Source: a virus (taxonomy: Duplodnaviria > Heunggongvirae > Uroviricota > Caudoviricetes). Taken from it: a DNA stretch of 23,100 nt. The notes under the pieces were generated by a model. It did not search any database. It saw only the letters and a program-made list of their open reading frames with translations, and was not told the origin of the DNA. Where the stretch lies: positions 1 to 23,100 of IMG/VR virus record IMGVR_UViG_2513237361_000003; one strand, written 5' to 3'. Position numbers and translations under genes: made by a program. Of the stretch, positions 430 through 1,910 are shown in pieces; the first letter of the stretch is position 1; every line of letters begins with the position of its first letter.

Positions 430-705
430 ATGACTAAGCTTTATCACCGCATCTCAACTTTTCTCTCTGGTTGCTGGGCGTTTATCACGTCTATTTCGTT
501 CGCCATCTTTAGTTTCGGTAGCACAGCGTGCTCGCTTAGTCGGGGTCTGTGGCGTGCTATTTCAGCACTAGCGCCGAAATTTTTACCTGAAAAGGCTGTT
601 TGGCGAATTGTAGAGCGAATGTGTAGTGAGAGCGTTCGCGAGAAGATTAACGTATTTGGACGTCATCCTCGAAATACAGGCGCATTGTGCAGTCCGTTAC
701 TGTAG
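430..705 (+). CDS. hypothetical small protein with a hydrophobic N-terminal segment (accessory ORF)
   Basis: AGGAG at 419-423 sits 6 nt before the ATG at 430. Residues about 10-32 are hydrophobic (TFLSGCWAFITSISFAIFSFG). Stop TAG 703-705 is followed immediately by a stem-loop. No family recognised. Confidence 0.45.
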   Translation: MTKLYHRISTFLSGCWAFITSISFAIFSFGSTACSLSRGLWRAISALAPKFLPEKAVWRIVERMCSESVREKINVFGRHPRNTGALCSPLL

Positions 706-742
706 TCATTACAAAGCCCATCTACGGGTGGGCTTGATAATG
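703..742 (+). repeat. copy A of a duplicated post-ORF stem-loop element
   Basis: Stem AAGCCCA (714-720) pairs with TGGGCTT (729-735), loop 8 nt, then GATAATG. About 40 bp are homologous to 1562-1605, with the stem sequence changed but still fully paired. Confidence 0.55.
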
Positions 743-918
743 AAACCGGAATTTATTCTGGGTAACCAGTTACGGCAGTACAGCGATACAACCCAAGCCA
801 GTAAGTGGGGAAATAACACTGGCAGCCACTGAAAGATGAACCTCCTGCCTTATGGCAAAAAAGATTCTTTGTGGTGGCGGACTGATGGAAAGACATCCGC
901 TGAATCGATAACGAACAA

Positions 919-1107
919 GTGGAAGATGTTGCGATGGTTTCCGTAAACAAAGACCAGAAGGAAGGCGTTGAATACATCACTGGTGCTGATGGTGTGAAAA
1001 GGCCAATGGCTTATTACAAAGCGGCTGAAGAGAGGGCAAGAATGGAAAATATCCCTAAATGCGGCTCATTTTTCGACATGCTGAACCTTCAGCAATGGAA
1101 GTTGTGA
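919..1107 (+). CDS. hypothetical small protein (possible start GTG 919 or ATG 934)
   Basis: Open reading frame only. No convincing ribosome-binding site and no recognised family. A GGCGGCC-TTTTT stretch lies downstream. Confidence 0.3.
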   Translation: MEDVAMVSVNKDQKEGVEYITGADGVKRPMAYYKAAEERARMENIPKCGSFFDMLNLQQWKL

Positions 1108-1183
1108 ACAACTAACAGGTCGCTCAGGCGGCCTTTTTATCGCCATCACAAAAACATCTTTAACAACCAACAAGGTCATAATT

Positions 1184-1564
1184 ATGAACGGCCAGCAAAT
1201 CGAAAAAGAAATCGTTGAGAAAGGCAAAACAGCCCCGCGAATCACTCCTCAGCACATCGAAGACGTGATTAAAAGCGAGCATTACTTTACTGCTTATGAT
1301 GGACGTAATGGTGCCATTTCCAGCAACGAATATTGTGGCAGGGAAAAACCAGAAGAAGACGATCGTGATTTATCACCATTGAAGTTGCTCACTTTCTGCG
1401 TACTGGTGCTGAAGAATGGCTTCACCGTCACCGGAGAGAGTGCCTGTGCAAGCCCTGAAAACTTTGATGCAGAAATTGGTCGGAAGATTGCCCGGCAAAA
1501 TGCTGTAAACAAAATCTGGATGCTCGAAGGTTACTTGCTGAAGCAGAAGATAAGCGAACAGTAG
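1184..1564 (+). CDS. conserved phage protein of unknown function, possibly the N4-gp49 / Sf6-gene-66 family
   Basis: 126-aa ORF in the position P22-like phages use for small conserved ORFs between lysis and terminase genes. The family assignment is from memory and not verified. Stop TAG 1562-1564 is followed by the second copy of the stem-loop. Confidence 0.55.
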   Translation: MNGQQIEKEIVEKGKTAPRITPQHIEDVIKSEHYFTAYDGRNGAISSNEYCGREKPEEDDRDLSPLKLLTFCVLVLKNGFTVTGESACASPENFDAEIGRKIARQNAVNKIWMLEGYLLKQKISEQ

Positions 1565-1605
1565 TTATTACAAAAGCCATTCCCTACAGAGTGGCTTTGA
1601 TAATG
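1562..1605 (+). repeat. copy B of the duplicated post-ORF stem-loop element
   Basis: Stem AAAGCCA (1573-1579) pairs with TGGCTTT (1592-1598), loop 12 nt, then GATAATG (1599-1605). Flanks TAGTTATTACAAAAGCC...GATAATG parallel copy A. Confidence 0.55.
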
Positions 1606-1667
1606 GCTTATACCCTGCACGGGATAACTTAACTGATATCCCTTTTAACGGATAAACGTAGCCAATA

Positions 1668-1910
1668 ATGGCAGAGATTATTCCCATGACTGAAGAACAG
1701 AAATTCCAGCTAGAGATTTACAAACTGGTAATGAACCAGAACGCAGCCGCAGAAGAAGCATTTCAATTCATTGGCACTGACGAGCTGAAGCTTGAGCTAT
1801 TTAAAATTCACTTCCAGTCAGGCGGCGCTAATTCAGATGTCACGACCCGCACTATCGAAGCGGTGCGTAAATCGAAGGAAGCGTTAGACCTGTTCACTAC
1901 CGGAGCATAA
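1668..1910 (+). CDS. hypothetical small acidic protein
   Basis: 80-aa ORF in the same orientation as the late operon. Weak ribosome-binding site. No family recognised. Confidence 0.45.
   Translation: MAEIIPMTEEQKFQLEIYKLVMNQNAAAEEAFQFIGTDELKLELFKIHFQSGGANSDVTTRTIEAVRKSKEALDLFTTGA

What the first reader, a model, noticed from the sequence alone, without database searches (positions are those of the whole stretch)
430..1910. Accessory ORF cluster between the spanin genes and the terminase
Four small ORFs sit between Rz/Rz1 and the small terminase: a protein with a hydrophobic N-terminus, two unrecognised small proteins, and a conserved phage protein of unknown function. There is also about 210 bp of non-coding DNA at 706-918. 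This slot in lambdoid phages commonly holds morons or host-interaction genes. None has an assignable function from sequence, and the first ORF has an odd C-terminus that may indicate decay.
Basis: partly seen in the sequence, partly recalled or inferred. Interest (0 to 1): 0.5.

Follow-up and report, generated by a model that had tools for sequence, protein, structure and literature searches.

The report
Phage cargo slot with anti-CBASS sponge
The stretch between the lysis genes and the DNA-packaging genes of this P22-like phage is a swap-in, swap-out cargo region, and one of its genes belongs to a known family (Acb4) that soaks up bacterial immune alarm molecules, so it is real and interpretable but mostly ordinary.

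Summary
Three of its statements need correcting.

- **ORF3 (1184-1564) has an assignable function.** It matches Pfam PF13876 and is 124/126 identical to Sf6 gp66. PF13876 is the Acb4 family of cyclic-dinucleotide sponges that block CBASS. The AlphaFold model matches only SPO1 Acb4 in the PDB, and the protein is 44% identical to N4 Acb4.
- **ORF1 (430-705) is not decaying.** Its homologs are nearly all 90-91 aa, and the C-terminal 36 codons are under strong purifying selection.
- **There is a fifth gene.** A conserved 23-codon ORF lies at 1913-1984.

ORF2 most likely starts at ATG 934 and has its own terminator. ORF4 is DUF2560 (P22 orf80), and no function was found for it.

The "non-coding" DNA consists of a covarying hairpin linker (706-743, with a second copy at 1563-1608) and a conserved spacer (744-897).

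Across 120 related loci the spacer always ends at the same base and separates two cargo slots:

- The upstream slot holds Rha, KilA-N, Tad2-like or ORF1 genes.
- The downstream slot is empty in 70 of 107 resolved loci and otherwise mostly holds Acb4 or ORF2.

Verdict: an accessory cargo region of a known kind. The functions of ORF1, ORF2 and the spacer remain open.

The parts
1..393 (+). Rz (i-spanin), 5' end cut by the window edge. Rz1 (o-spanin) is embedded at 155-340. This is the left anchor of the cargo region.
   Evidence: PF03245 E 3e-33 and phrog_13. 94-97% identical to Rz of Sf6, P22, N7 and HK140. The Rz1 lipobox VSAC is read directly from the sequence.
430..705 (+). ORF1, 91 aa, pI 10.2. 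It has a hydrophobic segment at 8-29 (possible lipobox LSGC15) and a near-invariant C-terminal domain at residues 56-91. It is slot A cargo of unknown function.
   Evidence: AGGAG lies 6 nt before the ATG. phrog_34701 covers 1-91/91. Of 53 homolog clusters, about 50 are 90-91 aa. There are 34 synonymous and 26 non-synonymous codon differences against the Enterobacter homolog, and the C-terminal differences are almost all synonymous. It is present in 6 of 79 resolved slot A loci. Homologs sit downstream of several non-homologous lysis cassettes.
706..743 (+). Structured linker hairpin 1: outer stem CAUUA/UAAUG, internal loop, 9-bp inner stem, no U-tract. It starts one base after the ORF1 stop codon.
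   Evidence: dG -21.8 kcal/mol, z -5.8. Across 21 distinct copies, 99.6% of cells are paired and 6 of 9 inner-stem pairs show compensatory changes, against 28-49% paired in slid controls. It forms a direct repeat with 1558-1605.
744..897 (.). Conserved non-coding spacer (core 772-897) that separates the two cargo slots. Its 3' end at 897 is the insertion point for slot B cargo.
   Evidence: Present at 93-99% identity in 194 phage records. It ends at the same base in all 130 loci examined. It carries 1-2 nt indels and ATG836->ATA variants. No Rfam match. No significantly stable fold: z -0.7 on the + strand and -1.7 on the - strand.
934..1107 (+). ORF2, 57 aa from ATG 934 (62 aa if GTG 919 is used). 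Slot B cargo of unknown function.
   Evidence: phrog_5425 E 6.7e-42. Homologs at 52-72% identity share the core KEGVEYITGxDGxKRPMxYYKA. The indel among alleles is in frame. Present in 5 of 107 resolved slot B loci and in phage Gally.
1117..1140 (+). Intrinsic terminator after ORF2: GC-rich 7-bp stem followed by UUUUUAU.
   Evidence: Terminator scan. dG -11.6, z -2.7. It travels with ORF2 in every ORF2-bearing locus whose sequence reaches it.
1184..1564 (+). ORF3 = acb4 homolog and ortholog of Sf6 gene 66 (N4 Gp49 / PF13876 family). Predicted cyclic-dinucleotide sponge that counters CBASS. Slot B cargo.
   Evidence: PF13876 E 3.7e-35, 120.7 bits. 124/126 identical to Sf6 gp66, which is listed in Chang et al. 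Table S3. 44% identical to N4 Acb4, E 1e-28. Profile against PDB 9e4w gives E 2.7e-5. The AF2 model has pLDDT 92 and its 13 best Foldseek hits are all 9e4w. The family is present in 20 of 107 slot B loci.
1563..1608 (+). Structured linker hairpin 2, a paralogous copy of hairpin 1. It overlaps the ORF3 stop codon and opens the leader of DUF2560.
   Evidence: dG -20.3, z -5.3. Direct repeat of 699-742. Covariation with hairpin 1.
1668..1910 (+). ORF4, DUF2560 (P22 orf80, HK620 hkbM, Sf6 gp67). It is the near-constant gene that closes the cargo region. Function unknown.
   Evidence: PF10834 E 1.9e-43. A full-length gene is found in 88 of the 130 loci, and several others are cut before reaching it. 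The AF2 model is a 4-helix protein with pLDDT 86. No PDB fold match, best E 4.5. BFVD returns only uncharacterised proteins.
1913..1984 (+). Micro-ORF of 23 codons (MATQGFDNPSKFRDEWDKQAEGK) just before the small terminase.
   Evidence: Enterobacter prophages encode GFDNPSKFREEWDKQ..GK* with synonymous differences and the same stop, but located between the spanin and the ORF1 homolog. It is 100% conserved in nearly all loci that carry this terminase type. Weak DUF2740 hit, E 0.064.
1990..2415 (+). Small terminase subunit of the Sf6 gp1 type. This is the right anchor (context).
   Evidence: PF20901 E 9.7e-44 and phrog_1482 E 1.3e-65.

Best explanation
The interval 430-1910 is the dispensable cargo segment of the late operon of a P22-like (Sf6/CUS-3-type Lederbergvirus) phage or prophage of E. 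coli/Shigella.

**Architecture.** It is built from independently exchangeable one-gene cassettes, in this order:
- Rz/Rz1
- slot A, here ORF1
- hairpin linker
- conserved non-coding spacer
- slot B, here ORF2 with its terminator, followed by acb4
- hairpin linker
- DUF2560
- micro-ORF
- small terminase

**Function of the one assignable gene.** ORF3 is an Acb4-family protein. By homology it should assemble into a tetramer that sequesters CBASS second messengers. The expected ligands are 3'3'-cGAMP and, as in other Gram-negative-phage homologs, 3'3'-c-di-AMP. It should not bind c-di-GMP. Sequestration would stop the host CBASS effector from firing before progeny are assembled.

**Expression.** The cassettes are probably transcribed by read-through from the late promoter under Q/gp23-type antitermination. 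No internal promoter is detectable.

**Linkers.** The hairpins are plus-strand RNA structures without U-tracts. They most likely act as mRNA 3'-end stabilisers or processing sites. At the DNA level they, together with the spacer, provide the short homologies at which cassettes are swapped.

**What is shown and what is inferred.**
- Shown: gene content, family membership by sequence and fold, cassette presence/absence, purifying selection on ORF1, and hairpin covariation.
- Inferred: ligand binding, tetramerisation, late-operon expression, and the roles of the hairpins, spacer, ORF1, ORF2 and DUF2560.
For: **ORF3 as Acb4**
- PF13876 at 120.7 bits against a cut-off of 27.
- 98% identical to Sf6 gp66, which is among the 1,331 Acb4 homologs of Chang et al..
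- 44% identical to N4 gp49. N4 gp49 is N4 Acb4, which binds c-di-AMP at 111 nM and triggers PanDA.
- Profile hit to PDB 9e4w at E 2.7e-5.
- The AF2 model (pLDDT 92) has 9e4w as its only significant PDB match, with probability 1.0 and target-normalised TM 0.59-0.76.

**Cassette behaviour**
- The pairwise maps show ORF1, ORF2 and acb4 each present or absent independently.
- In 130 loci the spacer always ends at window position 897.
- Slot B is empty in 70 of 107 loci, holds Acb4 in 20, ORF2 in 5 (one of these also holds Acb4), and otherwise DUF551, an unknown 80-aa protein or a trypsin-like protease.
- Slot A holds Rha (45 loci), KilA-N (20), ORF1 (6) or a Tad2-like protein (2, plus phage Huey and E. 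coli 55989).

**ORF1 is a real gene**
-.

**Hairpins**
-. U.G pairs are present in 18 of 21 and 7 of 21 copies. These would be A.C mismatches on the other strand.

**No internal promoter**
- 0 sites found against 2.6 expected by chance.
Against: - No biochemical or genetic data exist for this allele or for Sf6 gp66 itself.
- Several SPO1 Acb4 ligand-contact residues differ in ORF3: K36->L68, E49->T81, V56->C88, Y57->A89, T70->I102. Only F48, F62 and I66 are kept (alignments, residues). Ligand range is therefore extrapolated from other Gram-negative homologs.
- A counter-defence gene transcribed only late would act late in infection.
- The late promoter and the Q gene lie outside the window, so the expression route is assumed.
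- Guilt by association says nothing certain about ORF1, ORF2 or DUF2560.
- The hairpins could simply be weak terminators.
Confidence: 0.8

Rival explanations
1. One reading: an unclassifiable cluster of morons of unknown function, with ORF1 a decaying remnant.
For: - ORF1, ORF2 and DUF2560 have no Pfam, NCBIfam, PADLOC or PDB-based function.
- The cargo is variable among relatives.
Against: - ORF3 is clearly a member of the Acb4 family.
- ORF1 keeps its full length of 90-91 aa in about 50 of 53 clusters.
- ORF1's C-terminal 36 codons show about 20 synonymous and 1 non-synonymous difference.
Confidence: 0.1
2. Some of the small genes are routine lysis or packaging accessories rather than host-interaction cargo. 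ORF1 would be a membrane-anchored lysis accessory, because it always follows the spanins. DUF2560 and the micro-ORF would be packaging helpers, because they sit just before the small terminase.
For: - ORF1 homologs lie directly after several non-homologous lysis cassettes.
- ORF1 has a hydrophobic anchor and conserved Cys15, Cys65 and Cys87, as periplasmic disulfide-bonded spanins do.
- DUF2560 is near-constant and sits next to several different terminase types.
Against: - ORF1 is absent from most viable relatives, including P22, Sf6, HK620 and L.
- DUF2560 is truncated to an N-terminal fragment in the lambdoid siphoviruses HK140 and mEpX1.
- The micro-ORF sits in a different place in Enterobacter prophages.
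- There is no homology to any lysis or packaging family.
Confidence: 0.2
3. The conserved spacer 744-897, bounded in most relatives by the two hairpins, is itself the functional unit. It would be a processed non-coding RNA or a regulatory 5' leader for whatever lies downstream.
For: - It is retained in all 130 loci while both flanks are exchanged.
- In the commonest form (70 of 107 loci) it is flanked directly by two strong hairpins.
- Its nucleotide diversity is 0.027, against 0.075 at third codon positions of the adjacent DUF2560.
Against: - No Rfam match at E<=1.
- The fold is no more stable than shuffles: z -0.7 on the + strand and -1.7 on the - strand.
- The frequent T/A polymorphism at window 849 breaks both candidate stems (read directly from the alignment).
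- The diversity comparison is biased, because the loci were ascertained with an exact 23-nt word from the spacer.
- All copies are at least 92% identical, so recent spread by recombination explains the data equally well.
Confidence: 0.2
4. The cassettes are lysogenic-conversion morons expressed from the repressed prophage for the benefit of the host, for example in superinfection exclusion.
For: - ORF2 carries its own intrinsic terminator.
- ORF1 resembles a small membrane protein, as many exclusion proteins do.
Against: - No sigma-70-like promoter was found on either strand in 1-2600, against 2.6 expected by chance.
- All genes are co-oriented with the late operon.
- An Acb4 sponge helps an infecting phage, not a lysogen.
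Confidence: 0.12

Closest known systems
Acb4 (anti-CBASS 4) sponge family, Pfam PF13876 (N4 Gp49 / Sf6 gene 66). Founding member is SPO1 Acb4, PDB 9e4w (Chang et al., bioRxiv 10.1101/2024.12.30.630793).
   Same: - ORF3 passes the Pfam model.
- It is 98% identical to Sf6 gp66, which is listed in the paper's family table.
- It is 44% identical to N4 Acb4.
- Its predicted fold matches only 9e4w.
- It keeps the invariant core NGFTVTGESACASPENFDAEIGRKIA and the aromatic and aliphatic pocket residues equivalent to F48, F62 and I66.
   Different: - It is 126 aa against 96 aa in SPO1 Acb4. The extra length is an N-terminal extension and a variable segment at about residues 37-66.
- The guanine-reading residues K36 and E49 of SPO1 Acb4 are replaced by L68 and T81. 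T81 is shared with N4 Acb4.
- It sits in the late operon of a temperate podovirus.
- It has not been tested biochemically.
Morons of lambdoid phages (Juhala et al. 2000, Hendrix et al. 2000), for example the "ant moron" of P22-like phages (PMC2629481).
   Same: - Extra genes sit between two genes that are adjacent in relatives.
- They are not needed for morphogenesis or lysis.
- Content differs between otherwise similar phages.
- ORF2 has its own terminator.
   Different: - No own promoter is detectable.
- The location is Rz-terminase, not the gene 16-gene 9 junction.
- The cargo sits in two fixed slots separated by a conserved spacer and bounded by covarying hairpins.
Tad2 (PF11195) and Sequestin (PF21825) sponges, which are often fused or adjacent to Acb4 (Tal et al., bioRxiv 10.1101/2025.07.12.664507).
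   Same: - In relatives (phage Huey, the E. coli 55989 prophage, locus L056) slot A holds a Tad2-like gene immediately upstream of the spacer. In Huey and 55989 acb4 follows in slot B.
- A close homolog of ORF3 (P0113, 71% identical) is a PF21825-Acb4 fusion.
   Different: - The window itself has neither domain.
- ORF1 occupies the place of the Tad2-like gene and shows no similarity to it.
"Boundary sequences" annotated as bsq features in the Sf6 GenBank record (their description by the Casjens laboratory for HK620 and Sf6 is recalled from memory).
   Same: Short conserved sequences at the edges of mosaic modules, beginning at or next to stop codons.
   Different: - The linkers here are RNA-like hairpins with compensatory substitutions, not merely conserved words.
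- The annotated Sf6 bsq7 lies inside Rz, not at these junctions.

Membership tests
Acb4 / PF13876 (ORF3) | Matches the Pfam PF13876 model above the gathering score. | tested here: met
   120.7 bits against a cut-off of 27, E 3.7e-35, covering 1-81 of 82 profile positions.
Acb4 / PF13876 (ORF3) | Fold of SPO1 Acb4: three antiparallel strands flanked by N-terminal helices and a long C-terminal helix. | tested here: met
   The AF2 model has pLDDT 92 with strands at 29-36, 69-76 and 81-87 and a helix at 96-125. The top 13 Foldseek PDB hits are all 9e4w chains, with probability 1.0 and TMt 0.59-0.76. The next hit has E 0.2.
Acb4 / PF13876 (ORF3) | Sequence homology to members with demonstrated cyclic-dinucleotide binding. 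| tested here: met
   N4 gp49 (N4 Acb4) is 44% identical over 109 aa, E 1e-28. The A1 profile against SPO1 Acb4 (9e4w) gives E 2.7e-5.
Acb4 / PF13876 (ORF3) | Ligand-pocket residues of SPO1 Acb4: K36, F48, E49, V56, Y57, F62, N63, I66, T70, K81. | tested here: inconclusive
   From the alignments, F48->F80, F62->F94 and I66->I98 are kept. K36->L68, E49->T81, V56->C88, Y57->A89, N63->D95 (a backbone contact) and T70->I102 differ. K81 lies in the aligned region but its counterpart was not scored. All eight diverse homologs tested by Chang et al. still bound 3'3'-cGAMP.
Acb4 / PF13876 (ORF3) | Homotetrameric pinwheel with four interface pockets. | not testable with these tools
   Only monomer prediction is available. 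A multimer prediction or SEC-MALS is needed.
Acb4 / PF13876 (ORF3) | Binds CBASS signals and rescues phage from CBASS. | not testable with these tools
   Requires EMSA or ITC and plaque assays.
Moron (classical definition) | Present between genes that are adjacent in related phages. | tested here: met
   Slot B is empty in 70 of 107 loci. ORF1, ORF2 and acb4 are each independently present or absent.
Moron (classical definition) | Own transcription terminator. | tested here: inconclusive
   ORF2 has a canonical terminator at 1117-1140. ORF1 and acb4 are followed by strong hairpins without U-tracts.
Moron (classical definition) | Own promoter, giving expression independent of the surrounding operon. 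| tested here: not met
   0 sigma-70-like sites in 1-2600 on both strands, against 2.6 +/- 1.6 expected in shuffles. This is a consensus scan only.
DUF2560 / PF10834 (ORF4) | Matches the Pfam model above the gathering score. | tested here: met
   147 bits against a cut-off of 25, E 1.9e-43. It is the ortholog of P22 orf80, HK620 hkbM and Sf6 gp67.
Tad2 (PF11195) / Sequestin (PF21825) sponges | Any ORF of the window matches these Pfam models. | tested here: not met
   No hit at E<=1 for ORF1, ORF2, ORF4 or the micro-ORF. A Tad2-like protein is found only in relatives.
Bacterial lipoprotein (ORF1) | Signal peptide ending in a lipobox [LVI][ASTVI][GAS]C. | tested here: inconclusive
   LSGC15 fits the lipobox and Cys15 is invariant. 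However, the preceding hydrophobic stretch is only about 7 residues, the residues after Cys are hydrophobic (which fits a transmembrane helix at 8-29 instead), and one homolog has FAEC. No SignalP or LipoP is available.
Known RNA families (spacer and hairpins) | Match to an Rfam covariance model. | tested here: not met
   No match at E<=1 in 1-2600 on either strand. No tRNA or tmRNA.

The most novel reading that the evidence does not exclude
The Rz-to-terminase interval of P22-like and other lambdoid phages may be a two-slot counter-defence island. Relatives carry Tad2-like sponges in slot A and Acb4 sponges in slot B. If so, the other small occupants could be uncharacterised inhibitors of bacterial immunity:
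- ORF1, a 91-aa membrane-anchored protein with an ultra-conserved C-terminal domain;
- ORF2, a 57-aa protein;
- the 80-aa and DUF551 proteins seen in relatives.

The covarying hairpin-spacer-hairpin scaffold could then be the RNA and DNA device that both expresses and shuffles these genes.
Probability: 0.25. Interest if true: 0.6.

Novelty: new member of a known kind. Interest (0 to 1): 0.35.

Why it matters
- **Annotation.** The result turns a "hypothetical protein" cluster into an interpretable one. This phage carries an Acb4-type sponge, so it is predicted to resist cGAMP, cUA and c-di-AMP-signalling CBASS systems. It is also predicted to be sensed by guard systems such as PanDA/Panoptoo that detect Acb4. 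That matters for host-range prediction and for choosing phages or hosts in experiments.
- **Candidate discovery.** The comparative map gives a cheap way to find counter-defence candidates. Any gene found right after the spacer end (window 897), or between Rz and hairpin 1, in the many E. coli and Salmonella prophages that carry this region is cargo worth testing.
- **Limits.** None of this changes current understanding. The Acb4 family and its Sf6 member were already catalogued.

Tried and rejected
- **Small ORFs inside the non-coding gap** (740-832 at 30 aa, 836-946 at 36 aa, and 753-980 on the minus strand). Rejected: relatives carry 1-2 nt and 68-nt indels and ATG->ATA changes, and there are no family hits.
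- **Known RNA in the gap.** No Rfam hit, no tRNA, and no stable fold for the spacer core. The minus-strand terminator-like hairpin at 862-841 is broken by a common T/A polymorphism.
- **Function for DUF2560.**
  - The PDB sequence search found nothing meaningful.
  - The AF2 model gave no PDB fold match (best E 4.5), and BFVD gave only uncharacterised proteins.
  - A literature search for DUF2560 and orf80 gave nothing relevant.
- **Function for ORF1.** No hit in Pfam, NCBIfam, PADLOC or the PDB, including a profile search.
- **Function for ORF2.** An exhaustive HMMER search of 1.84 billion representatives found only 7 clusters, all unannotated.
- **Defence systems.** PADLOC gave no hits for any ORF.
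- **Internal promoters.** None at the scan threshold. A hand-read AAAACA-17-CATAAT site before ORF3 matches only 8 of 12 positions and would leave no leader, so it was rejected.
- **Selective constraint on the spacer.** The diversity comparison is suggestive only, because of ascertainment bias.
- **The "anti-CRISPR" label** on the Gp49 and DUF2829 genes in the phage Huey record. Treated as an annotation-pipeline label, not as evidence.
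Full report
**What is there**

The window opens inside Rz. Frame 1 is open from base 1 to 393 (PF03245, E 3e-33), and Rz1 is embedded at 155-340. Further on lie an Sf6-type small terminase (1990-2415; PF20901, E 9.7e-44), a large terminase (2412-3827) and a portal gene (3829-6027). Megablast places the region among P22-like phages (Lederbergvirus: Sf6, CUS-3, HK620, P22) and E. coli prophages. No record covers 80% or more of bases 1-2500 apart from one E. coli chromosome, and matches always come in pieces, which shows the region is mosaic.

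**ORF3 (1184-1564) has an assignable function**

ORF3 scores 120.7 bits against Pfam PF13876 "N4 Gp49 / Sf6 gene 66", where the cut-off is 27. Chang et al. (bioRxiv 10.1101/2024.12.30.630793) showed that SPO1 Acb4, a tetrameric sponge that sequesters 3'3'-cGAMP and related CBASS signals, founds exactly this Pfam family. All eight diverse homologs they purified bound 3'3'-cGAMP. Those from Gram-negative phages also bound 3'3'-c-di-AMP, and none bound c-di-GMP.

- Sf6 gp66 is listed in their Table S3, and ORF3 is 124/126 identical to it.
- ORF3 is 44% identical (E 1e-28) to N4 gp49. A 2026 preprint characterises that protein as N4 Acb4. It binds c-di-AMP at 111 nM and is the trigger of the PanDA guard system.
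- A profile of 45 homologs hits the SPO1 Acb4 chain 9e4w at E 2.7e-5.
- An AlphaFold2 model (pLDDT 92) has 9e4w chains as its 13 best PDB matches, with probability 1.0 and target-normalised TM 0.59-0.76. Nothing else scores below E 0.2.

Of the SPO1 ligand contacts, F48, F62 and I66 are kept. The guanine-reading K36 and E49, and V56, Y57 and T70, are replaced. T81, which replaces E49, is shared with N4 Acb4. ORF3 is therefore a member of the family by sequence and fold. Tetramerisation and ligand range are inferred.

**ORF1 (430-705) is a real gene and is not decaying**

- It has an AGGAG Shine-Dalgarno sequence 6 nt before the ATG.
- It matches phrog_34701 end to end.
- It has 53 homolog clusters. 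About 50 of them are 90-91 aa and extend down to 55% identity, in E. coli, Enterobacter and Citrobacter.
- Against an Enterobacter homolog there are 34 synonymous and 26 non-synonymous codon differences. In the last 36 codons almost all differences are synonymous.
- Residues 56-91 (AxWRIVERMCSESVREKINVFGRHPRNTGALCSPLL) are nearly invariant.

The "odd" C-terminus is therefore the most constrained part of the protein. The N-terminus is hydrophobic (KD 1.69 for residues 11-29) and the protein is basic (pI 10.2). Cys15 lies in a lipobox-like LSGC motif, but the signal-peptide reading is doubtful. Homologs sit directly after several non-homologous lysis cassettes and upstream of a terminase. No function could be assigned.

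**ORF2**

ORF2 most likely starts at ATG 934, giving 57 aa. Distant homologs at 52-72% identity start at the equivalent Met and share the core KEGVEYITGxDGxKRPMxYYKA. The indel among alleles is in frame. A canonical intrinsic terminator follows at 1117-1140. The family is tiny, with 7 representative clusters among 1.84 billion proteins, and none is annotated.

**ORF4 and a fifth ORF**

ORF4 is DUF2560 (PF10834, E 1.9e-43), the ortholog of P22 orf80, HK620 hkbM and Sf6 gp67. It is confined to Enterobacteriaceae. Its model is a four-helix protein (pLDDT 86 for the best model, 61-70 for the others). It has no PDB fold match, and its BFVD matches are all uncharacterised.

Enterobacter prophages encode GFDNPSKFREEWDKQ..GK* with synonymous differences and the same stop. 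There it sits at a different place, between the spanin and the ORF1 homolog.

**The "non-coding" DNA**

Bases 706-743 form a two-tier hairpin (dG -21.8 kcal/mol, z -5.8). A paralogous copy at 1563-1608 (dG -20.3, z -5.3) overlaps the ORF3 stop codon. Neither hairpin has a U-tract.

Across 21 distinct copies, including an Enterobacter version and a fourth stem type, 99.6% of cells pair and 6 of 9 inner-stem pairs show compensatory changes. Slid controls pair at only 28-49%. The compensatory counts reflect a few independent stem variants, not many separate events. U.G pairs, in 18 of 21 copies at one position and 7 of 21 at another, favour the + strand, which is the late-mRNA sense.

The rest of the gap (744-897, core 772-897) is found at 93-99% identity in 194 phage records, including P22, L, Sf6, the lambdoid siphoviruses HK140 and mEp234, and Stx2 phages. 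It is not coding, because relatives carry 1-2 nt and 68-nt indels and lose ATG 836. It has no Rfam match and no fold more stable than shuffles. Its diversity is 0.027, which lies between the third positions (0.075) and the first plus second positions (0.010) of DUF2560. However, the loci were ascertained with a word from the spacer, so this is only suggestive.

**Architecture across relatives**

I fetched 120 IMG/VR loci that carry a 23-nt word from the spacer and added ten annotated phages and prophages. In all 130 loci the spacer ends at the same base, window position 897.

Slot B lies downstream of the spacer, between base 897 and hairpin 2. Its content in the 107 resolved loci was as follows.

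| Slot B content | Loci (of 107) |
|---|---|
| Empty | 70 |
| Acb4-family gene (three allele classes) | 20 |
| ORF2 (one locus, L021, also has Acb4, as in the window) | 5 |
| DUF551 protein | 4 |
| 80-aa protein of unknown family | 2 |
| Trypsin-like protease | 1 |

Slot A lies upstream, between Rz and hairpin 1. It holds Rha-family genes in 45 loci, KilA-N in 20, ORF1 in 6 and a Tad2-like (PF11195) gene in 2. Phage Huey and the E. coli 55989 prophage also carry the Tad2-like gene, and there it is followed by acb4 in slot B.

Cassette junctions fall at stop codons and at the motif CAT[TC]ACAAA(A)GCC that opens the hairpins. The window is a "fully loaded" version, with ORF1 in slot A and both ORF2 and acb4 in slot B. 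No sampled locus has all three.

**How it most likely works**

The genes are all co-oriented with the late operon, and no sigma-70-like promoter is found (0 sites against 2.6 expected). I therefore infer that they are transcribed by read-through from the late promoter under Q/gp23-type antitermination, as is established for P22 and lambda. The promoter itself lies outside the window.

Acb4 would then accumulate while virions are being built. It would sequester CBASS cyclic dinucleotides and keep the abortive-infection effector silent. The hairpins are probably mRNA 3'-end stabilisers or processing sites. At the DNA level they and the spacer supply the homology for cassette exchange. This last part is inference.

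**Comparison with what is known, and novelty**

The Acb4 family and its Sf6 member were already catalogued. Tad2 and Acb4 are known to be fused or associated (10.1101/2025.07.12.664507). Variable moron regions in P22-like late operons are also well known (PMC2629481).

What this analysis adds is modest: a precise two-slot map with a fixed insertion point, covarying linker hairpins, proof that ORF1 is a constrained gene, and a missed micro-ORF. I rate the finding as a new member of a known kind, with interest 0.35.

The most novel reading not excluded is that the interval is a counter-defence island. ORF1 and ORF2 would then be new immune inhibitors. I put the probability of that at about 0.25.

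Noticed in passing
window 1913-1984: A 23-codon ORF (MATQGFDNPSKFRDEWDKQAEGK) lies just upstream of the small terminase. Enterobacter prophages carry a 27-codon version with synonymous differences and the same C-terminus, but located between the spanin and the ORF1 homolog. It looks like a mobile micro-gene.
   Followed up: partly
window 706-743 and 1563-1608; L131:4276-4316; L030:5005-5044: A family of two-tier hairpins (outer stem CAUUA/UAAUG, variable inner stem with compensatory changes, no U-tract) follows the stop codon of each cargo gene. It also occurs in Enterobacter prophages that lack the spacer.
   Followed up: yes
window 744-897: A non-coding spacer is conserved at 93-99% identity in about 190 phage records of different morphotypes (podoviruses, lambdoid siphoviruses, Stx2 phages). 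It always ends at the same base. Some relatives (Sf6, Gally, E. coli OZ121081) carry a 68-bp insertion between window positions 755 and 765. Its function is unexplained.
   Followed up: partly
L002 (phage Huey) 1215-1715; L010 (E. coli 55989) 1215-1694; L056: Relatives carry a Tad2-like (PF11195/DUF2829) gene in the slot that ORF1 occupies here. In Huey and 55989 it lies directly upstream of the spacer and acb4. The Huey record labels both genes "anti-CRISPR protein".
   Followed up: partly
L062, slot B (about 1.3 kb insert after the spacer): One IMG/VR locus carries a 246-aa trypsin-like serine protease (PF13365) in the slot that acb4 occupies here. This is unusual cargo for this position.
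   Followed up: no
protein P0113: A 193-aa homolog that is 71% identical to ORF3 is a PF21825 (Sequestin)-PF13876 fusion. This is the two-sponge architecture described by Tal et al.
   Followed up: no
ORF3 residues about 37-66 (window about 1292-1381): Acb4 alleles in slot B fall into three classes (about 97%, 79% and 77% nucleotide identity to ORF3; lengths 381, 357 and 372 nt). The protein alignment shows that the differences concentrate in the segment between strand 1 and strand 2, while the C-terminal core (residues 70-119) is almost invariant.
   Followed up: partly
L009 (HK140) 1807-1944; L135 (mEpX1) 2592-2729: The lambdoid siphoviruses HK140 and mEpX1 keep only an N-terminal fragment of DUF2560, followed by an HNH endonuclease gene. 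The right-hand mosaic boundary therefore lies inside DUF2560 in cos-type phages.
   Followed up: no
L004 3286-3711 (NZ_OZ121081.1): RefSeq names the Sf6-type small terminase ortholog of this prophage "ubiquitin carboxyl-hydrolase". This appears to be an annotation artefact.
   Followed up: no
L131-L134 4371-4622 and 4727-4945: In Enterobacter prophages the ORF1 homolog is followed by two further small ORFs (83 aa and 72 aa) with no Pfam match before the terminase. These may be cargo of the equivalent slot.
   Followed up: no
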